The notes: a model not told the origin generated them from the sequence alone. Counted from the first letter of the stretch, positions 5,128 through 50,617 are shown. The stretch: DNA of 52,592 nucleotides from a virus (IMGVR_UViG_3300017760_000007:1-52592), one strand, 5' to 3'. Made by a program: numbers and translations.

Positions 5128-8100
5128 ATGGCTACTACTAGAAAATATTTAAAATTTGGTTTAAGAGCAGACAAAAATCTTGCTGACATGAGTGATCAGT
5201 CAGAGGGTCTTGGCAACCTTTTAAATAATCTAGATAGAGATGTCAGAGATGTTCATGGAAATCTTGTAGGATTTAGAGTAGATGATGTTGTTTCTTTACA
5301 ACAACTCAGCCAAACAGATATTGCTAATACTGCACCCACTCCCGGGGCTATACCAGAAGCATGGACATGGTTAAGAGAAAACATTTCTTTTCAGACAGTA
5401 AATGGAAGAAACGTAAACATTCAGCCTCTTGTAACAATACAAGACGAAATAAACAAAGGAAAGATAGTGTTGGGCGATCCACCTTTTGTGAGTGGTGGAA
5501 CAGGTCCAATAACAACATATATCCCATCAGCTAGATTTGCTCCATACATTCCAAACAGTGGCTTGGAAAATGAAAAAGTTGCGGCAAATAAAATTCGACA
5601 AGGAAATAGATACAGAATAGAAAGTCTTGGCTCGCCTGCAATATCAGACGGATTATGGAACAATGTATCTACCACAACTGACACTGGTTACACCGCAGGT
5701 GACATATTCACAGCATCAACCAATAGCACACACGAGTTTTCATTAGATAATATGTCCGATGGAACAGATGGTTCTATTCAGCTAGAAGTGGGTAATGGAT
5801 TATTGGCGGGTATGCAAGTAAGATATCTGGAAACAGACTCTACATATTCCCCAAGCAACTTAACTCATAATACTGTATACTTTATTCATTCTGTAAATGC
5901 GGGCGGACAACAAGGATCAATAAAACTAACCCTACAAGTGGGTGGTAGTCCTATAGCATTTACTAAGCCAACTATTGAAGATGTCGATGATCCAAATCGA
6001 ACAGTTAGAAGTGCTGATAATTTTAAACTGGTGTTAGAGGGATATGACAATGGGGAAATTAGAAATGTAACTATGCCATCAGGAAAATTCGCCACTGAAG
6101 CTGAAGGCTTAGACCCAGATGAATTAAACTCTACATTATTGTACACTAAAAAAGTAGACCCCACTGGGGCTATAGGTGATGATCTACAAAATGATGATGA
6201 GTTTTGGAGTGAAAGTGGGTTTTCGTTATCTACACCATTTTATCCAGTATTTCCAGATAACTTTGGTGGAGTTCAGTTTGAAGGATATCTAGAAGATGGA
6301 TTTAATCCAACATTCGAAACAAATGGATTTCTTGTAGTGGAGCAAGACTTACAAGAAGATGGGACAGATAATAATTGGGAACTTATCAAAGGTGTTAATA
6401 CTGATAGATTAAGACCAATATATCCAGTGTCTTGGGGAGTTGACCCAAATGATTCTAACAAAACAAGACTTACATTTGGTAGTAATGGAGAAGACATAAA
6501 GAGACTTGCAGTAGGTATGCTAGTTACAGTAAGGCCTGATGAACACGCTGCCGCACAAGCCGCAAGTGATGCCGATCCAAACGATCAAGCACTATTTAAT
6601 GCAGTAAATGATGTTGGAAAGGTGTCTCGAACAATATCTTCTATAGATGTTGAAAACAACTTTATTACTGTACAAAAAATGCAATATATTGATAGTAGTG
6701 GTAATACACAAAACGCTACTGCAAGTTCATCTTTTGATCTTACCATTGAGTGGAGCATGGGTGGAAGCGACAGAATAAGTTTTCCGACAACAATATCTAA
6801 GCCAGTTGGTAGAAGACGAAGAGTAAGAATTACTTGTTGGTGGCCGCAAAGAAATCTGGGCAATAGAGATTTAGGGCAGTCAGATAAGGTATTTTCTGAT
6901 ATTTCTAGCAATAGAACCAATCTGAAAATAGGAAACTTTTATAAAGGTCAAAACAACCAAGATTTTAGTAATAAAAAATATAGTTTCCCATTCTATAGAG
7001 ATAGAAGAGCAAGTGCAACACAGCAAGAATCTCAAAATCAAATTAAAGTTGAGTATACTGCAAGAAACATTTACGAGCCTGTTAGATACGCTAAAGATAC
7101 TACAGACTACTATGACGCAACAACATATGGAGCCGAGGGTAGAATGGGGGTAATTCCTCTTGAGTTGGGTCCCAATGGTCTGATGAAATACTCTACGATA
7201 GGTAGCGATTTAGATAAGCCCTTTGAAGTAAAGCCTCCACATAATAATATTGCATTCATTGGTAATGTGGGTGATATAGTCATTACACATAATGATTCAA
7301 CTGGAACATATCACGCATTTAAGATAACATTTAATGACTTAAATGAGGGAGCCTTCTTGGTTGATTCTAGTTACTCAACGGTCACTGGTATAGCAGAGGG
7401 CACAGTTCATAGAGTTTTACTTGTTAGAAATAAAGGTCTGCATGGAATATATTCTACTACACACGATGGTTCTGATCATACTTTGACTCAACTGTCTACA
7501 AGTGATGCATCATATTCTTATCATGTCAATCAAGTTAAAAAAGAAGATTTTATCTATAAAGTCGAGTATGATAATATAAGTTCTTTAAACGAACATTTAT
7601 ATTCTGGTCGAAACCGTACTTATGCACCCATGAACCAGATTGCATTTAAATTAGAAACTATTGATCACGAAGATACCCGCAATCCAAGTACAACTAGTGC
7701 GAACTTTACAGTTTCTGCACACCCTCAAGCAAGTGGGGGTGTATTCACAACATCACAGGCTCTTTCTACGAATAACGGCATAATATTAGCATATTCATCA
7801 AAGGGTCTAAACGATAGATCGGCTATAACAGAGTGTACAGATGTTTTTGGTCACGAAGTTTCAGCAACAGCATCCGCTCCAACTAATGTACTTACACTAA
7901 AAAGTGTAGAAGGTATAAGTGGTGGCGATATAGTTTATCTAGATGGAACTATTCCATATAGTGAAACTGATCCAACTATTGTTGGAGTTGTTAACGGTGG
8001 AGCAAAAACAATTACTCTTGTTAATCAGAATGGAAACGTGAATATAACTAAAGAAGCCCCTCCAGGTACAACCATAGTATTTGTGCCTGCAACAGCAGGT

Positions 8101-8340
8101 CCTGATAGTGATGGTTGGGCCAAGCAAAATAAAGAATATTGTGTGACTCCACTTAATACCGCTCCACCTTGGGCAGGTACAACTGAAGGTCTAGAGACAA
8201 CAGATAGCAATCCAAGCATAGTTGCAAAGCAATTAAAATTTACTGATTTGACTTTCTTAGATGTCCCTACAAACCAAATTTCTGATCTTTCTGGAACGAC
8301 ACTAGCAAACGGATATTTTGATATAACTTATAACGACTAA
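5128..8340 (+). CDS. Large virion structural protein (possible PA14-like sandwich; carries modules A and B)
   Basis: 1070 aa, with its own late promoter. N-terminal GLRADKNLAD..LGNL fibre-type motif. GGVQFEGYL..NGFLVVE..RVRITCWW resembles a PA14-type domain. Confidence 0.65.
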   Translation: MATTRKYLKFGLRADKNLADMSDQSEGLGNLLNNLDRDVRDVHGNLVGFRVDDVVSLQQLSQTDIANTAPTPGAIPEAWTWLRENISFQTVNGRNVNIQPLVTIQDEINKGKIVLGDPPFVSGGTGPITTYIPSARFAPYIPNSGLENEKVAANKIRQGNRYRIESLGSPAISDGLWNNVSTTTDTGYTAGDIFTASTNSTHEFSLDNMSDGTDGSIQLEVGNGLLAGMQVRYLETDSTYSPSNLTHNTVYFIHSVNAGGQQGSIKLTLQVGGSPIAFTKPTIEDVDDPNRTVRSADNFKLVLEGYDNGEIRNVTMPSGKFATEAEGLDPDELNSTLLYTKKVDPTGAIGDDLQNDDEFWSESGFSLSTPFYPVFPDNFGGVQFEGYLEDGFNPTFETNGFLVVEQDLQEDGTDNNWELIKGVNTDRLRPIYPVSWGVDPNDSNKTRLTFGSNGEDIKRLAVGMLVTVRPDEHAAAQAASDADPNDQALFNAVNDVGKVSRTISSIDVENNFITVQKMQYIDSSGNTQNATASSSFDLTIEWSMGGSDRISFPTTISKPVGRRRRVRITCWWPQRNLGNRDLGQSDKVFSDISSNRTNLKIGNFYKGQNNQDFSNKKYSFPFYRDRRASATQQESQNQIKVEYTARNIYEPVRYAKDTTDYYDATTYGAEGRMGVIPLELGPNGLMKYSTIGSDLDKPFEVKPPHNNIAFIGNVGDIVITHNDSTGTYHAFKITFNDLNEGAFLVDSSYSTVTGIAEGTVHRVLLVRNKGLHGIYSTTHDGSDHTLTQLSTSDASYSYHVNQVKKEDFIYKVEYDNISSLNEHLYSGRNRTYAPMNQIAFKLETIDHEDTRNPSTTSANFTVSAHPQASGGVFTTSQALSTNNGIILAYSSKGLNDRSAITECTDVFGHEVSATASAPTNVLTLKSVEGISGGDIVYLDGTIPYSETDPTIVGVVNGGAKTITLVNQNGNVNITKEAPPGTTIVFVPATAGPDSDGWAKQNKEYCVTPLNTAPPWAGTTEGLETTDSNPSIVAKQLKFTDLTFLDVPTNQISDLSGTTLANGYFDITYND

Positions 8341-10538
8341 GCAACAGTTAAAATTCTGTAAGTACCAACTCCATTATCATCTATACCACTGTGAGTAGAC
8401 GCATTGTAACTTAGATTTGCTACTCCACCAGATACTGTAGGTGGCTGTATACCATTATCACCCTTAACCAGAATATAATAAGTCTCCCCATTAATGTTTA
8501 TTGGTATGGTGTGCGTATAATCTGCAATAAGATCGTTTCCGTAGCTACCTTGAACTGTTTTAAATGCGCCCGAGTCAAAAGCATCTTGTGCAGTATTTGA
8601 TAGTATTATTTTTGGTGAACCAAGAGCAAGTCCACCGCTACCTGCGGTAAGCGTACTACCATTGACTGCGGCTGTAAATACGCTACCTTCTTGAACTAAA
8701 CCTTGAACTCCAAGCCCCGCCCAATCTCTTCCAACACCAACACTGGTAATTGTAAACTTCTCTCCTGCAACAATATCTGCAAAAGCAGTACTTGCTTTTC
8801 TTTGGAATATAAAGTTTTGCGACTGTGCTAAAAGAGACTCAGTTTTTAAAGCAGGGAAAGATAAACTTCCTATCGTATTTGCCGGTTGAGCCCCACCGCC
8901 TCCAACTTCAGACCAAGGATTGCTTGGATCAGTAAATGCACGAATTGCTCTGTCGTCAGCAGGGTTTAAAATATATAGACCGGGCGCTTCTAATGGTTTA
9001 ACAAAACCATTGGTGCTTGGTATTGCGCCAAACGTCTTAGCTGTTGCCTCAAATTGTGCAAGTTTAACTTTACCATTACCAATGGTAGAAGTAGAAGAGT
9101 TTGCTTTGAAGTAACTACCAACTATGTATGTATTAGCTGTTGTATTCGCTATAGTATTCCATCTTAACTGTGTATCTACAACAAAAGTAAAGCTAGAATG
9201 AGTTCCAGTACCATTAGGCGATATTTCAATTATAGAGTTAGCAGATTCGGCAAGACCTAAAGTTATCTCGTCTCCATTTACCGCTTGAACATAATACACA
9301 CCTTCATTGACAATACCAGAAATATTATTGTCGCCCGCTTCATTTTCGAAATACTGTACCTTATCATTGACGACAAGACCATGAGAAGCACCAAGATTTA
9401 TTTCATGCGAATTCGAATCTATCTGACCAGTTGAAAATGTAAATATTCCGTCATTGTTAGGCCCAATATTAGCAACACCTAAACTTTCTATTCGGTAAAT
9501 CTTTCCAGTAACAATATCCGCACTACCAGTAGTTAGTTCAGGTGAAGATGACAGAATAACATTCGAACCTACAGAATCCCATTGACTTTTAACTACATTC
9601 CCTAACTCTACAATTTCATATGGCTCACCTACAACCAATTGACCGAAAGGTGTGTTTCCGCCTATTGTTACTGTGTGTTGTGCATCTCCATTATTAACTA
9701 TTCTAACAGTACCATCAAACCTAATACCAGACTCTGTGCCTTCATTAGAAAAATCGTCTGGTAAATATGTAAGAATTGTTTTTGACTTTTTAGCAGGTAA
9801 ACTACTTAGATTTTGCTGAACTACTGATGCTCTATCAAAAGGCTCGTTAAGCACTTCTTCATCTAGGGTGCTACCAGTAGTCGCTGTTCTTTCTACATAC
9901 AAATTCTTTAGATTGTCTGTCGTAACTTCATCATTTCTAGTGATGGTCATGCTACTAACATCACTCATATCAAGTAATTGTTGTGTTGTAATATTTTCTA
10001 ACTGAAAGCGTCTATCGCCATCACTATTCACAACTTTATGACTATAACTTACTCCTTTATTGAGGGATACGATAGTACCCTCAGTGAAAGCAACTTTAGC
10101 TTTACTGACATTGGTAAACGCTGTCCATCCCTCACCATCAACGAAAACTGAAGTGAAGTCTTCTCTACCGATAACCTCTAATGCGGCTCCACCTGCACCA
10201 GACTCTCCTGCACCAGAAGCAATTGCAGTAAATATATCTCCAACATCAGCACTAGATAAATCTGAGCCACCCACAGCTACCCAGTTGCGAGGGTTTAAAG
10301 TGTCACCAATATTAGTTATTCTATATCGCTTGCCGGGTACAAATGAACCATAGAATATTGGAGTGTCGTCAGTAAAATTTGGATTATTTATAAGCGCAGA
10401 TTTAAACTGAGTGTTACCTATGAATAGCTGTATGTCTCTACTTATTCCTGTGCCACCAAGATTATCAAGTGCGTTTCTATCTGAAACAACTGATGAACTT
10501 TCTTGTAAATTTAGATTTGTTACAAAACCTTGTGCCAT
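8337..10538 (-). CDS. Virion structural protein with four module-A copies and a nested module B
   Basis: 733 aa, last gene of the minus-strand tail operon, TAATG-coupled to the upstream gene. N-terminal NL.E...NALDNLGG; near the C-terminus THTIPININGETYYILV. Confidence 0.65.
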   Translation of the reverse strand: MAQGFVTNLNLQESSSVVSDRNALDNLGGTGISRDIQLFIGNTQFKSALINNPNFTDDTPIFYGSFVPGKRYRITNIGDTLNPRNWVAVGGSDLSSADVGDIFTAIASGAGESGAGGAALEVIGREDFTSVFVDGEGWTAFTNVSKAKVAFTEGTIVSLNKGVSYSHKVVNSDGDRRFQLENITTQQLLDMSDVSSMTITRNDEVTTDNLKNLYVERTATTGSTLDEEVLNEPFDRASVVQQNLSSLPAKKSKTILTYLPDDFSNEGTESGIRFDGTVRIVNNGDAQHTVTIGGNTPFGQLVVGEPYEIVELGNVVKSQWDSVGSNVILSSSPELTTGSADIVTGKIYRIESLGVANIGPNNDGIFTFSTGQIDSNSHEINLGASHGLVVNDKVQYFENEAGDNNISGIVNEGVYYVQAVNGDEITLGLAESANSIIEISPNGTGTHSSFTFVVDTQLRWNTIANTTANTYIVGSYFKANSSTSTIGNGKVKLAQFEATAKTFGAIPSTNGFVKPLEAPGLYILNPADDRAIRAFTDPSNPWSEVGGGGAQPANTIGSLSFPALKTESLLAQSQNFIFQRKASTAFADIVAGEKFTITSVGVGRDWAGLGVQGLVQEGSVFTAAVNGSTLTAGSGGLALGSPKIILSNTAQDAFDSGAFKTVQGSYGNDLIADYTHTIPININGETYYILVKGDNGIQPPTVSGGVANLSYNASTHSGIDDNGVGTYRILTVA

Positions 10539-13500
10539 TATACTTTACCATCCATTTTTACTTCCCAACCTCTATTTTCTATGGCTTGAATTGTAGAATA
10601 AATTGAATTTGGGTCTGTGCTATAACTAGTATCTAACTGAATAATCTGAGTGTAATTTAATCCAGTTGGTGTGTTGCTAATACTACCATCAGCAGGATTA
10701 GTCACGGCAACCATTATTTGATTTTGCAAATCAACATAGTACTTTGCCGAATCTGGTACGAACTGTCTATTGTTAACTGCTGTAAGTACATCTTCAAAAA
10801 ATGCTTTTATTGCATTCCAATCTGAACTGTTCTTTGACTGAAGTTCAGGGAACCTGTTATTCTTCAAATCAAGAGAGTGAAAACTGATTGCAGATGAAAA
10901 ATTACCAGAAGTATAACTAGACAAATTATTGAAACTAAAGTCATACTCTTCACAATCTGAGATACCAGTCATTGACGGTATAGTTCCCACCAACTGATTA
11001 TTGTTTAATAGTATTTTTGATATAGAAGTGCCAGCAATTATGTTAGGGATATTTCCAGTCAGCGTATTAAAAGACAAATCTATTTCTTCGAGACTAGTTA
11101 GTCCTGTTAGTGTAGGGACATTACCAAAAAACCCTAGACTAGTCAAATCTGTGCCATCAGTAGCATTGAACTGAGTAGAATTTCTTCTTGCGACTAATCC
11201 AGTACCAAAATCTTTTGGCTTTTCACTCGCAGGGAAGTTAGCATCAACATTACTGGAATCATGTTCTGATGGTAAAATCTTTCGAGCATACATTCCATAA
11301 TCATTAACGAAAAACGGAGTACCGCCAGCACGAATAAGACCATTTTGAGTTGCTTCAAAAGTCACGCCTTCATACCATTGCCAGGGATTGTCTGATAGAC
11401 CTTGTCGATTCCAAGGCGTATTGACCAAAAATCCGAGCATCGCCGGGTATGACTTCATTACTCTATAAAAACAACCTTGCTCTAAATCGTGTACTTCTTG
11501 TGTATTTGATTCATCACTTCCTCTGAATTTATCACCTACTTTGGGCGTAGACCCTGTACCAAATTCTGCGCTATTTGCCACCCAACCTAAGTCTGTCCAA
11601 TCTTGAGTTGTGGTAGTTCCTAAGTCCTTGATAATATAAACAAAGTGTTGAACAACTTGATTAGCGGTCAAATCTCTGAACATAAAAAGATCACCCTCTT
11701 TAACATGAGTTCCGTGCTGAGTTGCGTTGTTGTCTAAGTCTGCACTATTAGAAGGTATACCACCAAATTCCCAATTGTATGTTCCATTTGGTATAATTTT
11801 ATCAACTACAGCCGCATTACTAGTCGCATATTCTTGAGCAGTTGTATCTAACCCTCTATGTGTCGCTAGTGATGTGGCATGAGAAGAATTGCCACTAATA
11901 TCGCCCTCTGTAGTATCATTACCCGGGTACCAACCCATATCTTCATACTCAAATGTCAATAGTTTTATCTGATTTGGGTCACTAACTACATTCATCTGAA
12001 CTGACCCAACATTAGCACCAAATGCATCTTTTTGTACTTGATATATTCCGCCCTTTTTCATCGACTGAAATGGAACAGAAATTGACGAGCCTGTCATTAG
12101 TATTTTTTCTAGGTTTGTCATTCCCGCCAAACTTGGTATTGCGCCTACATTACCACCAGAAATAGATAACTCTTCTAGAGCGGCTAAATTACCAAGAGGG
12201 AAAGTAATGACATTATTAACATCATCAGAGTTTACCAATCTACCGCCACCCCAAGGCGAAACATCTATATCTAATTTTAATAGAGAATTTTGAACTGTGG
12301 ATAACGCTTGCCCAGTTCTACCTGAAGTTCCATCAACACCCCAGAAATCACTATATGCGGCAACAGGAGACAATGTATCACCATCTCTATTTCTTATAGT
12401 AATGTACTTTAACTTGTTGTCATTTAGATCGTTATTACCTGCATTAAATGTGTTGTTTGCAAATGTAAAAGCAATCCCACTTAAATTGATCAACTCTAAA
12501 GTTTCTAAATTAGGCTTATCGTTAAATGCTGATGACAGATCACCTGTACCACACAAAACATTGCTGTGAGATATACCAAAATCATGGAACTTGAAAGAGG
12601 TCAATGCTGTAAGATTTTGAAATAAATTGTGATCTACATTTCTTAACGCTTCTGTTGTGATTGCAGAATCGATCTTATTACTATCAAGACTTAATCCAGA
12701 TAGCTGAGTGTTTCCACTAAAGTTTGGTATATTGGAAAAAGTATCGTGATAATATACAGTATTTTTAAGAGAATTAGTATCAAATTTAACTGATGCTTGC
12801 CAGTCAGACTCTTCTTTTTTACTGGCTGTAGAATTATCTCTATATGGATAATTAGAAGTTTTAAATGGATTTGTTCTCATGTCTAGACCTTCCAATCGAG
12901 TGCTATCTAATACTTCATTTGGAATTATTGTATAAGAACTATTACCTACTTTGTATACCTCAACACTTTTCTCTTGCCCGTCATTGCCATTTCGTTTATA
13001 TGGAGTGCCATCTGCGTTGACTCTAACTAATTCGTGATGAGTACCAACCATAGTACCACTATACGAAGTAATTGCAGTACCACCCGGATAAGTTTTTAAT
13101 GTGAATAACGCACCACCACCACTAGTAGTAGCCACTTCATATATGGTGTTATTGGCACCCGGGATTGCTGATGACGATGTAAGTTCATTGATGCCTCCGG
13201 CAAGAGTATTGGTGCTATCAACTCTTTCCCAATACTGAACATAGTCTCCTGCTTGCAAGCCATGATCAGTAATGGTGAAAACGCCGGCACTGGTAAAAGT
13301 GGAGGGTTGCGTAGCAGGAGCGAATTTTACTATTTGACTAGGCCCACGAACAATTGGAGCAGTACCACCATTAGCATTAATACTACCATAACCAGGTGCA
13401 GGACCAATTCTTTGACTGTCACTCGTTCCTGCGGGCTGACCAAAGAGTAGTTTTTCAAGATTTTGTAATCTAGTAAAATCTATATTTACTACATTATCGC

Positions 13501-19254: not shown

Positions 19255-19257
19255 ATA

Positions 19258-22200: not shown

Positions 22201-24165
22201 CTGCGAGTAAACTGAAAGACCAGTACCACGAACAAACATAGAAGCATTGTAAGTAGTTTCAGCGTTACCACCGCCAGCCAAGTCATTCTTATAACCATCA
22301 ACGATATATCCAACATCACGTTGACATTTATTCTTAATAACTTCTTGTAGCTGTGCTTCAGTCAATCCTGCAAATGGTGCTAAAGCAGTTCCAGTGACAT
22401 TACCACTAGTACCACCTGATTGATTCGAACCGACTCCACCGGGCATGGTATACTTAATTGTTTCTGCAACCACAGTTCCACTAAAAGAATTACTGATAGT
22501 TGCATTACCATTCGCTACAAAAGTATGACCAACAAAACTAGCGGCATTTATTCCACCCACACCGCTAAGATTATTATTGCCTGCTAGAACTGTATAAGTT
22601 TTACCTGATTCTATAGTGTTTATTGCTGTTGCATTCGTTCCATCAAAATCATCTGCTCTTTTGACTGTAACATAGTAAGACCAGAAGTTTCTTTTGGTTG
22701 TCATAAATGTTTCTATTTTTTCACTTGCAGATGTTCTTACACCATAATCAGTGGGAATTACAACATCAAATGTATTATCATATGTTGGGTCGACACCATC
22801 ACCTGCTGTGCCAGCCGCATTACCGAAAGAGTTAGCAACAGTTGTTTGTAGTGCTTGAAGTCTTGTTAAACCATCAGCAGATAAACTTAGAAGCGTGTTA
22901 TGATGAATAGTATCGAGAAGAATTTTATGAATAAGCGACTCAAATTGTGAGATTCTTGGGAATACGCCAACCTGAGTGCCAACACTCCAAGTGCCTGTCG
23001 CCCCACTAGATAAGCCAAAGTTTGTTGTGTTCCACTTAGTATGTGCATCTCCACCATATTCAAGATCGAGCAAGAAATTATCGATCCAGTAATCTAAATC
23101 ACGTTTACACTTAGCTTCCATCTGCTCTGCTGATACAAGATAGTCGGTTGTCGATGTAACTGGATTACCGCCAACATGATATGCTAGTTCTGCGTTATAG
23201 GCAGCCGCTAAATCGGCATAAAAGACGCTAGTTGAAGTATATGTTTTACCGCCTGCGGTTTGTTGGTTAGAAAGAGTACCTCTGGCATTAATTCTAGTAC
23301 TATGTGCGTAGCCCGCAATCATTTCTGCACCACTAGTTGTAACAGCCGCATCACTACTAACAGCTTTAGTCAATACTGCATCAACCAGTTCAAATCTTTT
23401 TTCTTTAAGTTTGCTTCTATCGCTAAGAAGAGTTTCTACTACATCGGCTCTTTCTCTTTCACCAAAACCAACTATTCTATAGTCATCTAATTGAGTTTCG
23501 CTTATTCTATCCAGACTTGAACTCTGACTTTCCTTTAGGTTCTTTTCCCCTCTTAATACAGTACCACTATCACCACCTACTCCATACGGACTTATAGGTG
23601 CGTATTGTAATGACTGTGTTCTTCTTACAACAGCGAAGTTATCCTCTTCGCCATCGTTTCTAGTTTCCCAATAGTATCCATCATACTTGTCATAGATACC
23701 AAACTTACGAACAGATGGATTTTGAGAAAAAGTAGCATTAGATACAGATGACTTGATACCGAATGTAGCCGCAGATACACGACCAGGCTGATATCTGAAA
23801 AAACGCTTAGATGTCAGTACAGCAACTTTGTTACGAGATGCTTCTACAAGCGCACCCGCTTCAGTTGGAAGATGCTTAATACCATCACCACTAACATGAT
23901 ATTCTGGCTTCATAGACCATTCAGATGGATTAACATCGTAGGTATTAACGTCAGCAAAGATACCAAGTGCAATCTCTGCTCTTGGAATACCTAGAAGCGA
24001 TAGTGCAACTTCCGACTGTACTTTATTCTGCTCAACAACAGGGATAGAAGTCTGATCAGTTGCCATTACAACAGGAATAGACTTGTCCGCTATTTGTGCG
24101 CCGGGAGTAACTGGAGTAGTTCTACCTACGTTAACTACACTTGTGTTTTGATTAATACTTGTCAT
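19258..24165 (-). CDS. Large virion structural protein with two KCxRD helical repeats
   Basis: 1635 aa. Has the same conserved blocks as 15016-19254 plus a large central insertion carrying the KCxRD repeats and a module-A copy. Confidence 0.7.
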   Translation of the reverse strand: MTSINQNTSVVNVGRTTPVTPGAQIADKSIPVVMATDQTSIPVVEQNKVQSEVALSLLGIPRAEIALGIFADVNTYDVNPSEWSMKPEYHVSGDGIKHLPTEAGALVEASRNKVAVLTSKRFFRYQPGRVSAATFGIKSSVSNATFSQNPSVRKFGIYDKYDGYYWETRNDGEEDNFAVVRRTQSLQYAPISPYGVGGDSGTVLRGEKNLKESQSSSLDRISETQLDDYRIVGFGERERADVVETLLSDRSKLKEKRFELVDAVLTKAVSSDAAVTTSGAEMIAGYAHSTRINARGTLSNQQTAGGKTYTSTSVFYADLAAAYNAELAYHVGGNPVTSTTDYLVSAEQMEAKCKRDLDYWIDNFLLDLEYGGDAHTKWNTTNFGLSSGATGTWSVGTQVGVFPRISQFESLIHKILLDTIHHNTLLSLSADGLTRLQALQTTVANSFGNAAGTAGDGVDPTYDNTFDVVIPTDYGVRTSASEKIETFMTTKRNFWSYYVTVKRADDFDGTNATAINTIESGKTYTVLAGNNNLSGVGGINAASFVGHTFVANGNATISNSFSGTVVAETIKYTMPGGVGSNQSGGTSGNVTGTALAPFAGLTEAQLQEVIKNKCQRDVGYIVDGYKNDLAGGGNAETTYNASMFVRGTGLSVYSQTVGSGAAETLSEISRHAYLRDIIAKDLRAFGASAEIVSTNPSDDSGLFKNLADKIIGNFTTENQTAIEIGNKGFPGNLVVLRDGLVHTHGAVYDPSLLKDSKPVKAIATGISGAIGADSALAVFKLTEGTVTFSQHVKISWTGTATELQCGETSGIKIFKGEVLRVRRVIGPKGNEFTLVKEDRTPVNNAFTSVRLSDTDINNATTVGTFYIDTVVPFIFPKDYDIVSSIGNNADGSNFVSEIDTTYQTLVNNASGYTVGVNPGLNAQREFRTLGQTTVTGAVPRGAMFPYMYAINDNLLDGGMENSYIGFVNTALNPGSTENVDIIRSQIDNINFYPEYVNWIKNNVKPEYWGVYEYRVPRSRFSHDALDGISGQATDKAFNNTRGKRTRVYSDVATGSTGTVRPGENFTEIPGVPVYQNSLYRYDFTKVTMLKIEFSWYGAVGALFLAYVPVGNGEARWVRVHHLRASNQLKIASLGNATLPITYTTYGGGSEYCLGDGEDTTYQSDYQTNSHNIVKYGASYYIDGGDRGTVRLYSHNNDDTVSARGKRFAIVDLPTSVSTDTIDSETNATPYLEVTETYPVATLDLSSAAINGTGTITGLVSPAPALGEYVEVKNTNIDIADGIYRVKTRASDTSIQLSDGQFTTGNPTTTARTAGLITGTLTHRKLIDPTFYIGAKLKTDNALDQNIKACWAETTGTGLTEAGRVYLTGTPTTLTGVSLLADRSASVYGIETKKTILSTREQNAVRNRVQVYPTKLSTANLTTDNTNVRLRFKKTPTFQTNDNPTGTFTLTADFDIDTSNNFLPINNNNSGGYLNNGEGTYGWFRGRIGSEFITVFGRLHREADNYYFQLLESYEGSVTLVNGSTFMPDCKFLADGTKVAYSTTVYKTAYEKEGLSSVKIASNSVVPIPNTGVNVATLYLRSGTEQFDLDTYFDYNKEYLSFPLTDIADTLYFAVDSDTASTNTDEISLGVTWEEQ

Positions 24166-24174
24166 TAATTTTTC

Positions 24175-27636: not shown

Positions 27637-27664
27637 TTTTAATTGTATCCTTAGTAATTTATAC

Positions 27665-29204: not shown

Positions 29205-29383
29205 TTTGATATCTCTTTAACTGTATTCTCTAATAATGTCATGGCAGATTCTAATTTCTCTATTCTCTGCTCAAGACTCCTTAAATATTTAGCTTGCTCT
29301 CTTTTGGCAATTGCTTTATGATAAGCACTTGCATCAGTATTAATAACGCCAACGCCACTATCTGATTTCACAAAAGTTTCCAT
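29201..29383 (-). CDS. Small coiled-coil protein downstream of the VrlC-like gene
   Basis: VINTD..AY motif followed by heptads (LEQRIEKLESAMTLLENTVKEI). ATGA overlap with the next gene. Confidence 0.7.
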   Translation of the reverse strand: METFVKSDSGVGVINTDASAYHKAIAKREQAKYLRSLEQRIEKLESAMTLLENTVKEISK

Positions 29384-29385
29384 AA

Positions 29386-35253: not shown

Positions 35254-35271
35254 GTTTTATTCTCTTTTCCT

Positions 35272-37257
35272 TTAAAAGTCAAACGTGAACTTTATCGTTT
35301 CATTCTTGTCTGGTGATCTTGGTATTGGAGAAAAATCTATAAAGTGTAGAAGTTCCCCACTGTATGGGTCTAAAGACCCATGCACAACTGTGTCTGCTAT
35401 CATATTATTTATAAACGTAATAGATGTAGGTAATGTTTTAACGTAGAATTTACCCGGCATAAATCTATTACTATGTCCACCATCATAGTCTACTACAAAA
35501 ATGCTAGTGACATTATTCTCATATTTCACTTCGTGTATTCTACCACGAATTATTTCTAGACGATAGTCATATCCTGCTTCTGTTGTATCAACCGCATCTC
35601 TAGCAAAAGACAGCTTTGCGTATAGAGTAGAGTCTATTTCAGCAGTTCTTTGAGAAACAAAAATGCTACCAACACTTTCTGATGTTGCTCCTATCAACGA
35701 CCATACATTAGTCTCAACATTTCCTTTATCGACAATAGTATATGTTACTCCGTCAACAGCATCTTGTATATCAATTGTCTCGACATACTGTTCAATATAA
35801 TTGTTTTCCTGTCCACCATTTGCTAATGCACTACCACTAATGAGAGCCCCACCAACATCATTTATCTGTAAGATGGTTCTATTATCAAACTCATGCGACT
35901 CGTTTTCAGATGGAACAAATGGATCGCCTGTCGATGAGTCAGTGAAAGTAGGGTTCTTTAAAAGACCAACCATAGAGTATGTATTACCATTTGGTATTGC
36001 AGGTCTTTCTCCATTGAAAACAGAAACCAAAGTAATTTTACTTGTAGCCATTTCGTTAATCGGGTCTGAACCATGACCACCCTTCGGAGAAACGATTGCA
36101 CGAAGAACAGTTGGATTATCCAGTACTGATGTGCTACCCTTTAGATTCGGTGGATAGATAATATTTGCTTCTGCGTATTTGTATTCTGTTCCTCTAGTTT
36201 CAAACCCAATAGCTACAAGAGTTCCAAATCTATCCAGTTTACCATATGCTTTACATCTAGTACCAGTTAATGTGCTAGGAGTAACATCGACTTTCACAAC
36301 TAATTGATAAATCTCTTGAGCGTTAAACGTGTCTTCAGTTTCAATATCCAATACAATAGAGTTAGCCGCAAGAAGAGTTCTAGAGGCTTTAACTTCATAT
36401 AACTTACCATCGTTGATACCACTCTTTGCTCTTAGATACATATTTTTATAAGCGTCATTAGATATGTAAAGTGATCTACCAGAAACAACACTGGTGCTGA
36501 CCACAACTTGCTTAGTTTTTCCTGTTACCAATGACGCATCTGGATTTTCAATCTTAACATCAGACGCATCATGTATTGATGTTGCAGGACCGAATAGATA
36601 CTGATTGAACTGACTGGGCCGAGTGCTTTCTATTACAATTCTAGAAACAGATTCTTCTGCATTAGAAACAACATTGAAATCACCATAGCCACCAGAACCT
36701 TTAGTAAATTCCGAAACAGGTAGACTCCCTGATGTTCTATAATCAATGGCATCTTGTGCTGTAACAGTAAACATAACGTGCCAGACATATCCATCAGAAC
36801 CAGTAAAGAAGCCATAGCTTTCTGGATCAATTTCTGCGGCAATATCTCTTGATACTGCTCCATTATTATTGTCGATACATTTTAGAATGATATAATCATT
36901 TCCGTCAGCTACCTGTACACTGACAATCATGTTAAGTTTTTCGACATCTTTTGTATCATCGTAAGCATCATAGACTCTTCCCTCTTCCCACGGGTTGTCT
37001 AAGAACATATATTTCGCTTCATTGGTCGATCCAGTACCACCGACTCCTCTTGTGGCAACATCTATTCGTTTACCAAATACTATTTTTCTCTGAAAGTCTC
37101 TTTTTGAGACCTGAGTATTTGTGATTGGATCAACACCTAAATTTTCAGTTTTAGTAATACTTCGAGACGCCACGGCGTAGTAGTCATCAGTCTCTAAACT
37201 GTCAACTAAGTTTTTGGTTACGCCTACTCTAAAGTTTTCTGTTATAATTTTCGTCAT
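35272..37257 (-). CDS. gp8: Baseplate wedge protein gp8-like (expanded)
   Basis: W..GRVYDAYDD, KCIDNNNGA.S, DGYVW, AIVSPKGGHGSDPINE and terminal GELLHFID..PI.RSPD..E.IK..FDF. 661 aa. Confidence 0.8.
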   Translation of the reverse strand: MTKIITENFRVGVTKNLVDSLETDDYYAVASRSITKTENLGVDPITNTQVSKRDFQRKIVFGKRIDVATRGVGGTGSTNEAKYMFLDNPWEEGRVYDAYDDTKDVEKLNMIVSVQVADGNDYIILKCIDNNNGAVSRDIAAEIDPESYGFFTGSDGYVWHVMFTVTAQDAIDYRTSGSLPVSEFTKGSGGYGDFNVVSNAEESVSRIVIESTRPSQFNQYLFGPATSIHDASDVKIENPDASLVTGKTKQVVVSTSVVSGRSLYISNDAYKNMYLRAKSGINDGKLYEVKASRTLLAANSIVLDIETEDTFNAQEIYQLVVKVDVTPSTLTGTRCKAYGKLDRFGTLVAIGFETRGTEYKYAEANIIYPPNLKGSTSVLDNPTVLRAIVSPKGGHGSDPINEMATSKITLVSVFNGERPAIPNGNTYSMVGLLKNPTFTDSSTGDPFVPSENESHEFDNRTILQINDVGGALISGSALANGGQENNYIEQYVETIDIQDAVDGVTYTIVDKGNVETNVWSLIGATSESVGSIFVSQRTAEIDSTLYAKLSFARDAVDTTEAGYDYRLEIIRGRIHEVKYENNVTSIFVVDYDGGHSNRFMPGKFYVKTLPTSITFINNMIADTVVHGSLDPYSGELLHFIDFSPIPRSPDKNETIKFTFDF

Positions 37258-37272
37258 TTCTTTTTCGATCCT

Positions 37273-38265: not shown

Positions 38266-38278
38266 TTATTTACCTATA

Positions 38279-41200
38279 TTATTCTGCTACCGAACCTTCT
38301 CGGCTCACTTGAGTAGCTTGTAACTGCTCGTCAGCTTCTGTAACTAAGTTATCTCCACTTGCCTGTACAGGGGTTCTGGTGACAACCTCGAATGTTAATC
38401 CGGCTAGTGTACCAGAAGTTGTAAACACAATTTCATCCGATTCTGTTACCAATGTCAAGCTAGTTGGTGAAACCTGTGATAACTTATAAATCTTAGGTAG
38501 CGGAGCCAATGAATCATCAGTTGCAAACTCTTCTAATGGTAAGTTACCAACTCCAGTATTATTACCACTAACTCTAATTAAAGTCCCTATTGTGAGACTA
38601 CCAAAACCAGACCCAGAGAGTATACCAATACTATTAATAGTCGTAACTGTACCGGGCATAGCACTGTAAGTTTCTGAATATGTACCACTACCACCTTCTG
38701 TTACCAAGTCAATTCTATCAACATCAAAGAATACTATCTCTGAACTTAAATTAGTTTCAACTCTATTTACACTATTTATCAAAGGCGTACTAAACAGTTT
38801 TGTACCGGAAATACCAACAACATCGTCTACAAAACTTTTGTATATTTCTGGGCCGGTTGTCGCCTTAATATCATATGAATATTCTTGATAGTAATCGTTG
38901 TCATGTATTATGGCTGACGAATCGTTCAAGAATGATGATTTAGTTTTCCATCTACCCAAAGTGTTTCCCTGTCCAAATGACTCAATACTTGCTGTGGCAA
39001 CTTCTTGATCAAAGTTGGGGCTTTCTGTATTTTTATTTACGATATCAACAGTCGCACCTGTTACATACTTATACCCTGTGTGAGTTATAGCGACCTCTTC
39101 GATCTGACCAGAAGCATACGAGGCATTACCTCTAACTATAGCATTTGCTCCCATTGGTTGAGATTCTTGATCTTGTTTCAAACTTGTTATTGTCCTATCA
39201 ATAGATCGAATCGTAATAGTTTCATTATCATCAAATGTGTAAAAACTCATTGGTCTAAAGTAAAAGTCTTTGCCGTCTTGTTTTAAGAATTTTGCTCTAA
39301 CTGTATACTCTCTTGGAGCAACAGAGAATGTGGTTACGCTATTGCCATACGGAGTATCTACTCCCAGTGAATCAATCGAAGTACCGATAGTAGCTAAACT
39401 TGCCGCAGAAATGTTATTGACTTCATCTATTTGTTCAGTTGGTAAAATAATTTCTTGCGTTATGATCTCATCTTTTTCTAATTTGAACCCAGAGTTATCA
39501 AAGTTCAATATAATATCTTTTTTATTCAAAGACTCTATCAATTTATTTACAACTCTAACACCAACATCATTTTGATAATTTATACCCGGGTTATTCTCAA
39601 CGAGAGTCTCTAAACTTCCTATTCTGAACGTAACTGAGCCAAAAGCATTTCCCAATAAAGTGTTGATATTTTCTACGTCGGCAACACCCAACATATCATA
39701 GTTACCATCAGCATATGGACTATTGACATCAAAAAGGCCTGCGCTTTGTGGATCGAGAATCTCTCTATAATAGTCACCAATCTTATCTCTTGATAATGTA
39801 ACAATCTCTGCATCGTCAATAGAATCTAATTCAAACGAAGAAGATTCATTTAAAGAACTTATAGAAGAACATTTTACTACATTAGTGTGACTACCATTCA
39901 CAAAAGCATCGAATACGCCATTAGCAAGAACAGATTCTGGTGGAGTTCTGACTTCATTACCTTGATCTAATATTGGATTAACAAATACTCCACCAGTTGT
40001 CCAAACAGAAGTGCTAACCGATGCGTCATTATTATTAGTATCGGTTAATGTACCACTAACATTATTATAGTCAACACACACTCCAGTTTTACCCACAAGC
40101 GAGTATCCATCAGGTAAGGCTGTAGCAGTAAATGTAGTAACGTAATAAGTATGTACTGCCGCTATATCAAAAACAGCACCGTTTGTTCCTGGCGCAGATG
40201 GAATTGTAGCTGGCATAGTAATAGTATCACCCACTTGAGAGTCTGCTGATCCGCCCAACAAACTCCAATCAGTATTACCCAGTGTATGTATCATATAACT
40301 ACGACCAGGTTTCAACTCTGCATACTCACTCGAAATACTATGTATACCTAACCCACCATCAGTGAACGCACTAATATCAAATCCTAAATTAATCCAATCT
40401 GTATAAGTTGTGTTTCCAAAGTCTACTATACCATATAGTCTGCCAGGTACAAGGTCTTGCACGTTGGTAAAATAGCTATCGTATGCGCCGGGAGTCGATG
40501 CAGTTTCAAATGCAGTACCAACTGTCAACTTAGGAAGAATACCTTGTTGCACCAAGTAATGTAAGAGTAAAGCATATACTTGTTTTGCAGGAGTAAAGAT
40601 AGCATCATGGTTTTCAATAGAAGCAGTATTGTCATTAATCTGATCTAACAATTGACTGTTAAACAAAAAGTCTTCACCCGCATATCCTGCTCTAGCACCA
40701 ATTTTAACCCAGTCATCTGTACCTAATGTGGTGCCTGGATATATGACAGTATAGTATTGACCATTTTTTAGTTGATTCAGTGTTAAGTTAGGAAGGCCTG
40801 TAGCTTGTGTTGCCGGTATAAATGGAGAAATGGTTGGAGTTCTGTCTATAAGATCAGTCTCTTCTGAACCAGAGCCTTGCGCCCCGGAGTCTTCAAGTGG
40901 GTTTTGTTCAGTTCCTATCCAATCATCATTATCACCTGCTCCATCATAGAAACCATTATTAAGACCAAGCATATACGACTTTAATATTTTGATGTCAGCA
41001 TTTTGAACTCTCATTGACTTTCGAGTCAAATCGCCAAGATGATCACTATCCAATGTACCAGTAACTTCTGAGCCGGCTTGTGCAAATTCAGCAGTGATAG
41101 TATTGTTAACTGTATCTAGTGCTGTAATCTTTGCTCTATTACCAGTTGTACCACCTACTAATATCTCACCCAAAGCGAATGCGTTTGCTCCATTTTCTGG

Positions 41201-42790: not shown

Positions 42791-42793
42791 ATA

Positions 42794-44554: not shown

Positions 44555-44962
44555 TTATCTTACCCTACTAAGATCGATTGTGAGTGATAGATTTCTGTTA
44601 GTATTTATTACACTGAATATAATCTTTACAAACACTTCATGTCGATCTATATTAGCGTTTACTATAATGTCTTTTACAATACATCGAGGCTCGTATTGTC
44701 TTATTGTAGACTTGATGTTTTCTTTTAATATAAGAATGGTATTCTGATCTATATTCTCGAAGAGACTACCTCTTATATCACAACCAATGTCGGGCTGAAA
44801 GAGTCTTTCTCCACGATCAGTTAATACTAAATTGCGTATACTATCTCGTACTGCTTGCTCATTTACTCTACGAGCAATGTCTTCACGCCCAGGAATACGC
44901 TCTAGATTCGATTCAAAGTCTGAAAAGAAATCTTTATTTCGTGTTATTGGTGTTAGTGCCAT
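44555..44962 (-). CDS. gp25: Baseplate wedge subunit gp25
   Basis: AVRDSIRNLVLT..GERLFQPDIG..LFEN, YEPR. 135 aa. Confidence 0.95.
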   Translation of the reverse strand: MALTPITRNKDFFSDFESNLERIPGREDIARRVNEQAVRDSIRNLVLTDRGERLFQPDIGCDIRGSLFENIDQNTILILKENIKSTIRQYEPRCIVKDIIVNANIDRHEVFVKIIFSVINTNRNLSLTIDLSRVR

Positions 44963-44987
44963 GTCGTCTTCCTATAGTCGTATTATA

Positions 44988-44995
44988 TATTTATG
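44988..44995 (-). promoter_or_regulatory. Probable late promoter variant (CATAAATA) upstream of gp25
   Basis: One mismatch to TATAAATA, about 25 nt upstream of the gp25 ATG. Confidence 0.55.
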
Positions 44996-45000
44996 CGTTA

Positions 45001-48407: not shown

Positions 48408-48493
48408 CACTTATCCTCTAGTACACAATAGATACTATAACCTATTGATATTATTAAACATAATCCAAGAAAGTCGTTCCAAATCAAATCCAT
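48407..48493 (-). CDS. Unannotated 28-aa hydrophobic peptide MDLIWNDFLGLCLIISIGYSIYCVLEDK
   Basis: Fills the gap exactly: its ATG overlaps the hub stop (TAATG) and its TGA overlaps the gp5 ATG (TGATG). One TM-like segment. Confidence 0.65.
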   Translation of the reverse strand: MDLIWNDFLGLCLIISIGYSIYCVLEDK

Positions 48494-49845: not shown

Positions 49846-50617
49846 CGGTTAATATCGTCTCAAGTTGATCTTTTAATGTGGAAACATACCCTTTATTCAC
49901 TAATTGTATCTCTCGTTTTGCTTCGTTCTTATTTAATTCATAGTCATATGCACGAACGGCAAAGAATTCACGAGCAGGATTACTTAATGATGAGCCTCGA
50001 ACTGAAATTGTTTCAGCGTCTTCAACGATTGATCCATCAACTGCGGCAGTAAATGTAAGTCCATTTGATGCTACAAATGTACTCGTAAAGGTTAATCCAG
50101 TTAATGTTTCAAGATTTGCGGTAGAAATTGTTGTACCAAGTTCAAGAATGGTATATTCTTTTCCGGCTTCAATCTTATCTCCAGTCGTTGTGGTACTATT
50201 ACCAAGAGCAATAAATGATGCACGATTTAATGTTATTTCGTCATCGACTGCGCTTTTATAATGAATAATATTTGCTGAGATTGTAGCATTCTTTGCCCAA
50301 TCAAGTACTGCTGTGCCTGATGTACCAGACCTTACGGCATACTTATTAATAATACTTGACTCTACTTGATCATTTGTCAAGGGCCATTCACTATAAACAT
50401 CAACAATATCATTTGACATAAGCACTAACCAAGCAAGAGATGGGTCATCGTAATAATTATATGCGATATCTTCTGCTCTTTCGCCGTCTTGTATCGTGTA
50501 TGACATATAATCAAGGGCAGAATCAGATATTACTTTGTTTAATTTAGCTTTGCGTGTGATATCAGCAACAGATTTATTATCATAAATTGTTTGTGGAAAA
50601 TATTTAAAATAACTCAT
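49838..50617 (-). CDS. gp53: Baseplate wedge subunit gp53 with a module-A insertion
   Basis: MSYFKYFP, YTIQDGERAEDIAY.YYDDP.L.WLVL..N.I.D...WP, and YDYELNKNEAKREI. Confidence 0.92.
   Translation of the reverse strand: MSYFKYFPQTIYDNKSVADITRKAKLNKVISDSALDYMSYTIQDGERAEDIAYNYYDDPSLAWLVLMSNDIVDVYSEWPLTNDQVESSIINKYAVRSGTSGTAVLDWAKNATISANIIHYKSAVDDEITLNRASFIALGNSTTTTGDKIEAGKEYTILELGTTISTANLETLTGLTFTSTFVASNGLTFTAAVDGSIVEDAETISVRGSSLSNPAREFFAVRAYDYELNKNEAKREIQLVNKGYVSTLKDQLETILTDG

What the first reader, a model, noticed from the sequence alone, without database searches (positions are those of the whole stretch)
5590..50173. A ~40-aa module inserted about 16 times in-frame into 9 virion genes, including core baseplate proteins
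Seen: consensus (I/L/F)xxGxxYxIxxxG-(N/T)..W..(I/L/V)G...VGxxFxA, often followed by a closing (N/T)GxV strand. Copies: 5590-5718; 8667-8774, two within ~9000-9638, and 10218-10343; three within ~11180-12062 (LRR gene); 22510-22614; 25039-25140 (tailspike, PGEKYEIGEVGNTDWTKVGAPINKVGVTFTY); 30211-30348 (VrlC); 35650-35760 (gp8); 40658-40771 and two within 40070-40453 (gp7); 50030-50173 (gp53). A few copies lack the Trp. The host proteins are unrelated, and gp53, gp7 and gp8 are longer than their T4 counterparts. Inference: a mobile mini-domain with a conserved Tyr/Trp/Phe core has colonised the tail apparatus, giving a highly multivalent surface coat (glycan or surface binding, analogous to phage Ig-like domains), or it spreads as a selfish coding insert. 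I cannot name a family for it, and novelty is untested.
Basis: partly seen in the sequence, partly recalled or inferred. Interest (0 to 1): 0.82.

Follow-up and report, generated by a model that had tools for sequence, protein, structure and literature searches.

The report
Unnamed small domain decorating phage tails
A small protein domain of about 46-60 residues, absent from the family and structure libraries searched here, sits at about 14 places in nine tail and baseplate genes of an uncultured marine T4-like phage, and it also occurs in hundreds of other phage tail proteins and a few bacterial pilus adhesins.

Summary
The window is the tail and baseplate block of an uncultured marine T4-like myovirus. 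A module marked by GxxYxI, G-(T/N)-T-(D/N)-(W/F), (I/V)G and VGxxFxA occurs in all nine named genes. I support 14 copies: 11 full and 3 partial.

A profile built only from copies in unrelated viral contigs recovers 10 window copies above all but one of the decoy scores. A profile of the window copies finds 718 cluster representatives (E<=0.001) among 1.84 billion proteins, often in tandem.

Orthologues show clean presence or absence in gp53 and the VrlC-like protein, shifting sites in gp7, and fixation in gp8. The copies share no DNA similarity and a median of 24% amino-acid identity, so this is old domain shuffling and not a selfish DNA insert.

Best reading: a dispensable accessory surface domain, probably an adhesion or binding module, comparable in role to phage Ig-like domains. 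Function is untested.

The parts
5572..5730 (+). Module copy in the 1070-aa protein of unknown family (ORF 5128-8340), aa 149-201
   Evidence: 34.7 bits with the A3 profile. 11.9 bits with the external-only profile, against decoy scores of 12.0 and 6.5. Leave-one-out 8.5, marginal.
10179..10364 (-). Module copy 1 of ORF 8337-10538 (733 aa), aa 59-120. This copy was folded alone.
   Evidence: External-only profile 37.8 bits. Leave-one-out 32.8. AlphaFold model mbcc6d18413f2.
9567..9656 (-). Partial copy (N-terminal half) in ORF 8337-10538, aa 295-324
   Evidence: E 2.8e-4 in the six-frame scan. 15.7 bits with A3. 10.1 bits external-only.
9423..9533 (-). Compact or partial copy in ORF 8337-10538, aa 336-372
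   Evidence: E 0.0018. 7.4 bits with A3. 4.1 bits external-only, within decoy range. The sequence read shows GxxYxI and GxxFxF but lacks the Trp segment.
8631..8798 (-). Module copy in ORF 8337-10538, aa 581-636
   Evidence: Leave-one-out 16.8 bits. External-only 9.5.
11507..11671 (-). The single supported copy in ORF 10538-15016 (1492 aa), aa 1116-1170
Evidence: 33.9 bits with A3, by construction. External-only 6.5, a tie with the second decoy.
22459..22638 (-). Doubtful, degenerate copy without Trp in ORF 19258-24165 (1635 aa), aa 510-569
   Evidence: Leave-one-out 6.6 against a decoy maximum of 8.6. External-only 2.0. The motif is visible by eye.
25027..25164 (-). Module copy in the beta-helix tailspike-like protein (ORF 24175-27636), aa 825-870
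   Evidence: Best external-only score, 44.8 bits. The host protein has Pfam Beta_helix at aa 560-704.
30199..30357 (-). Module copy in the DUF4815/VrlC-like protein (ORF 29386-35253), aa 1633-1685
   Evidence: External-only 28.4 bits. 35 of 62 homologues carry it at this site and 27 do not.
35605..35778 (-). Module copy in the gp8-like baseplate wedge protein (ORF 35272-37257), aa 494-551
   Evidence: External-only 21.3 bits. Present at the same site in 39 of 39 close orthologues. Absent from gp8 of Caulobacter phage Cr30.
40649..40789 (-). gp7-like protein (ORF 38279-42790), copy 1, aa 668-714
   Evidence: 36.8 bits with A3. External-only 10.8. Leave-one-out 5.8, marginal. Conserved in the 16 of 45 orthologues that hold the whole triple.
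40382..40468 (-). gp7-like protein, copy 2 (partial), aa 775-803
   Evidence: E 7.6e-6 in the six-frame scan. 12.8 bits with A3. External-only 4.2, within decoy range.
40169..40333 (-). gp7-like protein, copy 3, aa 820-874
   Evidence: External-only 20.8 bits. Found as a non-seed hit by the first 9-seed profile, 19.1 bits.
49982..50203 (-). Insert of about 70 aa in gp53 (ORF 49838-50617), aa 139-212. It holds one module without Trp.
   Evidence: Leave-one-out 21.7 bits. External-only 7.6. The alignment of orthologues shows clean presence and absence. In the AlphaFold model the insert is a separate domain with block pLDDT 84-92.

Best explanation
The module is an autonomous small globular domain. 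The core is about 46 residues, and window copies reach 55-70 with loops. Its order is strand, short helix, strand, strand, and it is probably an SH3-like small barrel.

It belongs to a large family that has no name in Pfam, NCBIfam or the PDB. Over long evolutionary time, domain shuffling has added it to loops and linkers of phage tail, baseplate and fibre proteins. It has also been added to some bacterial surface proteins such as PilY1-type pilus tip adhesins.

In this phage it decorates nine virion proteins. The host proteins still assemble without it, because natural gp53, gp7 and VrlC-like variants lacking it are common.

Most likely it is an accessory surface module that makes weak, multivalent contacts with host envelope polymers and so aids adsorption. 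That is the role proposed for Ig-like, FN3 and BACON domains on other phages.

- Shown here: the family is real, it is widespread, it is modular, it is gained and lost, it lies outside the curated families searched, and it has a predicted compact fold.
- Inferred: the SH3-like fold class, exposure on the virion surface, and the binding function.
For: **A real family.**
- Leave-one-out and external-only profiles recover the copies above shuffled controls.
- A profile of 11 window copies finds 718 proteins at E<=0.001, 145 at E<=1e-10 and 7 at E<=1e-30 among 1.84 billion cluster representatives, with up to 11 matched stretches per protein.
- A second profile finds 1329 proteins at E<=1e-5 among the 8000 candidates scored.
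- Across 596 strong instances, Tyr, Ile and Phe are 99-100% conserved and five glycines 91-97%.

**Modular.**
- Of 240 proteins with a hit of at least 12 bits, 238 carry 2-11 copies, most often spaced 40-70 residues apart.
- Partner domains in the 120 best hits include Mtd_N (30 of 120 by my count), Beta_helix, PilY1 propeller, PPC, Phage-tail_3, Baseplate_wedge, tail Collar, CHB_HEX_C and fn3.
- In a Rhodoferax PilC/PilY protein, four copies lie at aa 174-479, ahead of the propeller at aa 890-1262.

**Dispensable and shuffled.**
- gp53: 46 of 64 homologues carry the insert, 14 lack it and 4 hold a remnant. The fewest changes on the gp53 tree is 2.
- VrlC-like protein: 35 of 62 carry it at the same site, 27 do not, and 2 carry it elsewhere.
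- gp7: 16 of 45 orthologues hold the triple, 16 of 45 have no residues at these three sites, and some orthologues carry copies at window positions 339, 721, 1189 and 1368-1395.

**Fold.**
- The gp53 insert is modelled as a separate domain, with pLDDT 84-92 in 10-residue blocks.
- The isolated copy has mean pLDDT 70.5 and the same order of elements.
- The best BFVD matches are unnamed proteins of uncultured phages, TM 0.59-0.72.
Against: - No binding was tested, and no conserved site that looks like a ligand site has been shown. The invariant aromatic residues look like core residues.
- The isolated-module model is only moderately confident.
- gp53 lies in the inner baseplate of T4 (recalled), so its insert need not face outward. 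I could not map the insert on a baseplate model.
- In gp8 the module is fixed in 39 of 39 orthologues, so there it may be structurally required.
- Window copies are much more divergent than the wider family, which may mean relaxed or different constraints: a variable loop, Trp in place of Phe, and three copies scoring within the decoy range with the external profile.
Confidence: 0.6

Rival explanations
1. The modules are structural buttresses. They dock on each other or on neighbouring subunits and build an extra layer that stabilises an enlarged baseplate and long fibres. They have no role in binding the host.
For: - The modules sit in three wedge proteins that are neighbours in T4 (gp53, gp7, gp8; the neighbourhood is recalled).
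- The gp8 copy is fixed in 39 of 39 orthologues.
- On the gp6 tree, every clade-A phage for which both genes are known carries the gp53 insert and the gp7 triple together.
- The strongly conserved glycines and core residues fit a rigid spacer.
Against: - The co-occurrence is confounded by descent. It breaks in clade B, where L100 and L103 have the gp53 insert without the gp7 triple.
- Many related phages do without the gp53, gp7 or VrlC copies.
- The same domain occurs in tailspikes, podovirus-type Mtd_N fibres and PilY1 adhesins. None of these shares a baseplate lattice, but all meet cell surfaces.
Confidence: 0.22
2. It is the repeat unit of a fibrous, oligomeric shaft, like the repeats of T4 long tail fibres. 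The single inserts would be vestiges of such shafts.
For: - Tandem arrays of up to 11 copies with a period of 40-70 residues.
- Frequent placement in fibre-like proteins with Mtd_N or tail collar domains.
- A Gly/Thr-rich tail follows each unit.
Against: - Single copies are inserted in non-fibrous proteins: gp53, gp8 and a beta-helix tailspike.
- Two monomer models give a compact domain containing a helix.
- Insert boundaries in gp53 and the VrlC-like protein are clean, as expected of a self-folding unit.
Confidence: 0.1
3. It is a selfish DNA element that inserts in frame, like Rickettsia palindromic elements, and has recently spread through the tail genes.
For: Many copies in one genome, always in frame, in unrelated genes.
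Against: - The 14 copies share no DNA similarity beyond exact words of 12 bases or fewer.
- No repeat family covers them.
- Amino-acid identity among the 11 full copies is 16-38%, median 24%.
- Orthologous copies stay at the same site across homologues down to about 37% protein identity.
Confidence: 0.03
4. It is a chance or low-complexity motif with no common origin.
For: - Three seed copies are marginal in leave-one-out.
- The Gly/Thr-rich tail draws spurious YjbE hits in 14 of 57 modules.
Against: - The external-only profile scores 20.8-44.8 bits for five copies, against a decoy maximum of 12.0 in a database 50 times larger.
- 145 database proteins match at E<=1e-10.
Confidence: 0.02

Closest known systems
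Ig-like, FN3 and BACON accessory domains on phage virion proteins. Fraser et al. 2006 is recalled. For the BACON repeats of crAssphage (PMC6949934) I saw only the search listing and the start of the abstract.
   Same: A small self-folding domain added to many unrelated structural proteins, often in tandem, and dispensable for assembly to judge from natural variants. It shares architectures with receptor-binding and glycan-active domains. The proposed role is weak, multivalent surface binding.
   Different: The fold and size differ: 46-60 residues with one helix, not an 80-100 residue beta-sandwich. No Pfam Ig, FN3 or BACON model matches the module. It is inserted inside core baseplate proteins (gp53, gp7, gp8), not only at the ends of decoration, fibre or major tail proteins. 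Binding is untested.
FeoA and the C-terminal SH3-like domain of the DtxR family (IdeR, ScaR)
   Same: They are the only recurring structural neighbours of two independently modelled copies. They have a similar size and a small barrel carrying a helix. About 55-62 residues align at 3.0-4.1 A rmsd.
Bacterial SH3b cell-wall-binding domains of endolysins and lysostaphin (recalled, not tested)
   Same: Small SH3-like modules used by phage and bacterial proteins to bind envelope polymers, sometimes in tandem.
   Different: No sequence match to any Pfam SH3 family. None of them appears among the listed structural neighbours, which does not exclude the fold.
T4 gp53 baseplate wedge protein (the host protein, not the module)
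   Different: It carries an extra domain of about 70 residues at aa 139-212. That domain is absent from T4 gp53 (193-residue chain), from Cr30 gp53 (201 aa) and from 14 of 64 marine homologues.

Membership tests
Any curated Pfam-A or NCBIfam family | The module region reaches a family model's threshold | tested here: not met
   - No family covers the module in the 9 window host proteins.
- None in 10 module-rich proteins at E<=0.1. The only row is a sub-threshold Big_14 hit in one protein.
- In 57 isolated modules at E<=10, the only recurring hit is YjbE on the Gly/Thr tail, in 14 of 57.
- NCBIfam gives only chance rows far below their cut-offs.
Proteins with a solved structure (PDB) | Sequence similarity to a deposited chain | tested here: not met
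   phmmer with an 11-copy protein gave 0 hits at E<=1. The profile of 57 modules gave a best E of 0.15, a chance match to a reaction-centre chain.
FeoA / DtxR-C SH3-like fold | Structural superposition clearly above background | tested here: inconclusive
FeoA (Pfam PF04023, accession recalled) | Sequence match to the family model | tested here: not met
   No FeoA row for any of the 57 modules at E<=10.
Phage Ig-like accessory domains | Ig-type beta-sandwich of about 80-100 residues recognised by Ig, FN3 or Big models | tested here: not met
   The predicted elements are strand, helix, strand, strand within 46-70 residues. No Ig, FN3 or Big model matches the module.
Phage Ig-like accessory domains | Added to diverse virion proteins and dispensable for assembly | tested here: met
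   Nine host genes here. Natural variants lacking the insert exist for gp53 (14 of 64), the VrlC-like protein (27 of 62) and gp7 (16 of 45). Dispensability is inferred from these natural variants, not from experiment.
Phage Ig-like accessory domains | Binds carbohydrate or a cell surface | not testable with these tools
   Needs binding assays.
In-frame selfish repeat elements (Rickettsia RPE type) | Copies recognisably similar at the DNA level | tested here: not met
   Only exact words of 12 bases or fewer are shared. No repeat family lies at the modules.
LysM | Beta-alpha-alpha-beta fold and the LysM sequence profile | tested here: inconclusive
   No LysM Pfam hit on the module. One Foldseek row to a LysM effector at E 8.1. 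The LysM-type neighbours of the gp53 model start in its N-terminal part (model residues 25-38), and none is confined to the insert.

The most novel reading that the evidence does not exclude
The module founds a new, globally distributed family of SH3-like envelope-binding domains. Abundant marine myoviruses display a dozen or more copies around the baseplate and fibres as a multivalent adhesive coat. Podovirus fibres and bacterial type IV pilus tip adhesins use the same domain, so phages and their hosts would share one adhesion module. Gain and loss of copies in gp53, gp7 and the VrlC-like protein would then tune adsorption and host range in the ocean.
Probability: 0.3. Interest if true: 0.72.

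Novelty: new member of a known kind. Interest (0 to 1): 0.55.

Why it matters
- **Annotation.** Much of the sequence of environmental phage tail proteins has no annotation. A defined domain that marks at least 718 protein clusters would annotate part of it and flag likely host-interaction proteins in viromes. These clusters include tail fibres, tailspikes and baseplate proteins.
- **Tolerance of insertions.** The insertion into gp53, gp7 and gp8 shows that the conserved T4-type wedge tolerates whole-domain insertions at defined sites. That is useful for structural work and for display or engineering in laboratory phages.
- **Shared parts.** The presence of the module in PilY1-type pilus adhesins hints that phage and host adhesion parts draw on a common pool.
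- **Built-in comparison.** If the module binds envelope polymers, the natural presence and absence series in related marine phages is a ready-made comparison for testing what such decoration does for adsorption.

Tried and rejected
- **Complex prediction.** I tested the gp7 middle region (aa 655-885, 10-row alignment) against the gp53 insert (aa 139-212). The verdict was 'no answer', score 0.00. This is not evidence either way.
- **DNA search of cultured phages.** Window 44001-52000 gave only a 131-base match to Sinorhizobium phiM phages, so there is no close cultured relative.
- **Protein searches of the GenBank phage collection with module-rich proteins.** These found 3 records and 2 records. 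One is a virion structural protein of cyanophage S-TIM54. BLAST's low-complexity filter and single-sequence sensitivity limit this result.
- **Prokaryote genome scans.** Two scans with P0173 and P0161 found no relative. These scans rely on a few exact peptide patterns, so they do not show absence from cells. One search does list PilC/PilY proteins.
- **Viral contig scan with the alignment.** I used a single protein instead.
- **ESM Atlas.** Best scores were 0.76-0.82, below the level the tool treats as meaningful.
- **Literature.**
  - Six short motif words searched anywhere in the text gave 0 papers.
  - Two keyword searches on inserted domains in T4-like or marine phages, and on SH3-like or FeoA-like domains in tails, listed nothing whose title or abstract start describes this module. 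I read listings and abstract starts only.
  - Supplements were closed and not consulted.
  - This is weak evidence that the module is undescribed. InterPro member databases other than Pfam and NCBIfam, and AlphaFold DB, could not be searched.
- **Link between the gp53 insert and the gp7 triple.** I considered a functional link and dropped it. The association follows the two main gp6 clades and breaks in L100 and L103.
- **Nested insertion in ORF 8337-10538 (aa 295-510).** Reading the sequence suggests separate compact or degenerate copies, but their scores are within the decoy range. This is unresolved.


Full report
**1. What the window is**

The 52.6-kb window is an IMG/VR viral contig fragment estimated at 31% complete. 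No further genome is held for it. It encodes a long run of minus-strand virion genes.

| ORF | Assignment | Basis |
|---|---|---|
| 49838-50617 | gp53 | Pfam Phage_gp53, E 8e-13; phrog_232 |
| 42794-44554 | gp6-type wedge protein | phrog_219, E 8e-148 |
| 38279-42790 | gp7-like protein, 1503 aa | phrog_17744 |
| 35272-37257 | gp8-like wedge protein | phrog_438 |
| 29386-35253 | DUF4815/VrlC-like protein, 1955 aa | |
| 24175-27636 | beta-helix protein | |

Several large proteins have no family. No cultured phage is close. The best gp53 matches in the GenBank phage collection reach at most 35% identity, to Caulobacter Cr30 and Sinorhizobium phiM phages. Homologues carry Tara and other marine metagenome labels.

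**2. Is the module there, and is it more than chance?**

All nine explicitly listed coordinates translate to the stated motif inside the long ORFs.

- *Leave-one-out.* Six of nine left-out copies score 13.9-32.8 bits. That is above every decoy in a 50-fold locally shuffled copy of all 23 window proteins (decoy maxima 8.4-10.8). Three are marginal: 5590 at 8.5, 22510 at 6.6 and 40658 at 5.8.
- *Six-frame scan.* A profile of 11 window copies (alignment A2) gives 14 matches at E<=0.002, all in the named ORFs. Three were not in the profile: 40370-40465, 9567-9653 and 9468-9530.
- *External-only profile.* This is the cleanest test. It uses 46 copies taken from unrelated viral contigs. Those contigs were found with a database protein and the copies were selected.
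  - Five window copies score 20.8-44.8 bits.
  - Five more score 7.6-11.9.
  - The two best decoys in the 50-fold database score 12.0 and 6.5.
  - The copy in ORF 10538-15016 ties the second decoy at 6.5.
  - The copy in ORF 19258-24165 scores 2.0.
- *Not supported.* The two further copies claimed in ORF 10538-15016 are not supported. I could not confirm that gene's 'LRR' label.

I therefore accept 14 copies (11 full, 3 partial or compact) in nine genes. One full copy is doubtful.

**3. It belongs to a large family**

The A2 profile finds 718 proteins at E<=0.001, 145 at E<=1e-10 and 7 at E<=1e-30 among 1.84 billion cluster representatives. Up to 11 stretches match per protein, and some proteins exceed 6,000 residues.

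The external copies are far more uniform than the window's. In 596 strong instances the Tyr and Ile of GxxYxI and the Phe of VGxxF are 99-100% conserved. Five glycines are 91-97% conserved. The aromatic residue after G-T-T-D is Phe in 79% and Trp in 16%. Each unit ends in a Gly/Thr-rich GxGxGTGTA-like tail. Window copies are a divergent variant, with Trp and a variable loop before it.

Of the 240 proteins with a hit of at least 12 bits, 238 have 2-11 copies, most often 40-70 residues apart.

A second search lists 1329 proteins at E<=1e-5 among the 8000 candidates scored. Among the 120 best, by my count:

| Partner domain | Proteins of 120 |
|---|---|
| Mtd_N (PF18454), mostly proteins of about 741 aa | 30 |
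| Beta_helix | 3 |
| PPC | 3 |
| Phage-tail_3 | 3 |
| PilY1 propeller | 3 |
| Baseplate_wedge | 2 |

Other partners are tail Collar, CHB_HEX_C with Fn3_assoc, fn3, He_PIG and GEVED. One PilY1-type protein is named in nr as a PilC/PilY type IV pilus protein of a Rhodoferax species. It has four copies at aa 174-479, ahead of the propeller at aa 890-1262. So the family is mostly viral but not only viral. Two pattern-based scans of prokaryote genomes found nothing, which is weak evidence.

**4. It has no name in the libraries I could search**

- Pfam finds nothing over the module in the nine host proteins.
- Pfam finds nothing in ten module-rich proteins at E<=0.1.
- In 57 isolated modules at E<=10, the only recurring hit is YjbE on the Gly/Thr tail, in 14 of 57.
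- NCBIfam gives nothing meaningful.
- PDB sequences give no match by phmmer or by profile.
- The best BFVD matches are 'Uncharacterized protein' entries of uncultured phages, TM 0.59-0.72 and 26-34% identity.
- Three literature searches found no description. I saw listings and abstract starts only.

**5. Fold**

A different copy (aa 58-124 of ORF 8337-10538) was folded alone with a 57-row alignment. It gives the same order of elements at mean pLDDT 70.5.

**6. Evolutionary behaviour**

- *gp53.* An alignment of database homologues shows a clean gap of about 70 residues in some proteins of 46-55% identity. Of 64 unique homologues, 46 hold at least 45 residues at the site, 14 hold 3 or fewer, and 4 hold 26-31. 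On a gp53 tree built without the insert columns, the forms lacking the insert fall in one clade (SH-aLRT 93). A subclade bearing the insert nests inside that clade. The fewest changes is 2. Cr30 gp53 (201 aa) lacks the module.
- *gp8.* The module is at the same site in 39 of 39 orthologues of 37-91% identity. Many of these loci are duplicates from different samples. It is absent from Cr30 gp8.
- *gp7 (45 orthologues).*

| Occupancy at the three window sites (aa 668-874) | Orthologues |
|---|---|
| All three sites filled | 16 |
| Shortened, unrecognisable version | 2 |
| Third site only | 8 |
| Scraps | 3 |
| No residues | 16 |

  Some orthologues carry copies at other places: window positions 339, 721, 1189, 1368-1395 and 1437-1456. 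This middle region varies from 231 to 648 residues among ten orthologues.
- *VrlC-like protein.* 35 of 62 homologues have the module at the same site and 27 do not. Of those 27, 26 have no residues there and 2 carry a copy at window position 1934.
- *gp6 tree.* The relatives split into two clades, each with support 100. The window's clade carries the gp53 insert and the gp7 triple wherever both are known. The other clade mostly lacks them, with exceptions.
- *DNA level.* The 14 copies share only exact words of 12 bases or fewer, and no repeat family covers them. Amino-acid identity among the 11 full copies is 16-38%, median 24%.

Together this is old, occasional domain gain and loss, followed by vertical inheritance. 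It is not the spread of a DNA element.

**7. How it most likely works**

- *Shown:* a self-contained domain that tolerates many contexts, and that several host proteins can do without.
- *Inferred:*
  - It sits on the outside of the tail apparatus.
  - It makes weak contacts with host envelope polymers, and these add up over a dozen or more copies.

The inference rests on the company the domain keeps: tailspikes, fibres, tail collar domains, carbohydrate-related domains and pilus tip adhesins. It also rests on the analogy with Ig-like and BACON domains.

The conserved polar positions Thr-Thr-Asp and Asn, next to the helix, are the best candidates for a functional patch. The invariant aromatics are probably core residues.

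The main rival is a purely structural buttress role. The fixed gp8 copy and the inner-baseplate position of gp53 in T4 (recalled) speak for it. A complex prediction between the gp7 modules and the gp53 insert gave no answer, and I do not count it.

**8. Verdict**

The 'mobile mini-domain' reading is right in the evolutionary sense. The 'selfish insert' reading is rejected. The binding function is plausible but untested.

It is a new domain family within a known phenomenon, accessory domains on phage virion proteins. Its notable features are its breadth, its insertion into core wedge proteins and its presence in PilY1-type adhesins.

Noticed in passing
window 28109-28486: Two copies of a 168-nt unit at 80% identity, spaced 210 nt apart, inside ORF 27684-29204 (506 aa). 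This is an internal protein repeat unrelated to the module.
   Followed up: no
window 15016-19254 and 19258-24165: The two adjacent giant ORFs (1412 and 1635 aa) are paralogues. Both match phrog_1645. They share DNA segments of 71-75% identity offset by about 3.05-3.1 kb. Only the longer one has the extra N-terminal part that holds the doubtful module copy.
   Followed up: partly
window 40136-40828 (gp7-like aa 655-885) and loci L082-L141: This middle region of gp7 varies strongly in length among orthologues, from 231 to 648 residues in ten relatives. It looks like a hotspot for domain insertion.
   Followed up: partly
window 9000-9660 (ORF 8337-10538, aa 295-510): An N-terminal half copy, a compact copy lacking the Trp segment, and a possible degenerate copy near aa 445-495 lie close together. 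Whether these are nested insertions or decayed tandem copies is unresolved.
   Followed up: partly
protein P0021 (gp53 homologue, 213 aa): It is identical to P0009 over the columns kept for the tree, but it lacks about 40 residues inside the module. This is either a recent internal deletion or an assembly artefact.
   Followed up: no
window 37273-38265: The 330-aa ORF between gp7 and gp8 matches internal segments of several very large 'virion structural protein' and baseplate wedge PHROG families, with profiles of 587-6136 positions. It looks like a free-standing version of a domain usually fused into giant proteins.
   Followed up: no
proteins P0209, P0206 and P0264: Bacterial PilC/PilY1-type pilus proteins carry 3-4 modules ahead of the beta-propeller. 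I could not check whether these are chromosomal genes of free-living bacteria or lie in prophage or mis-binned contigs.
   Followed up: partly
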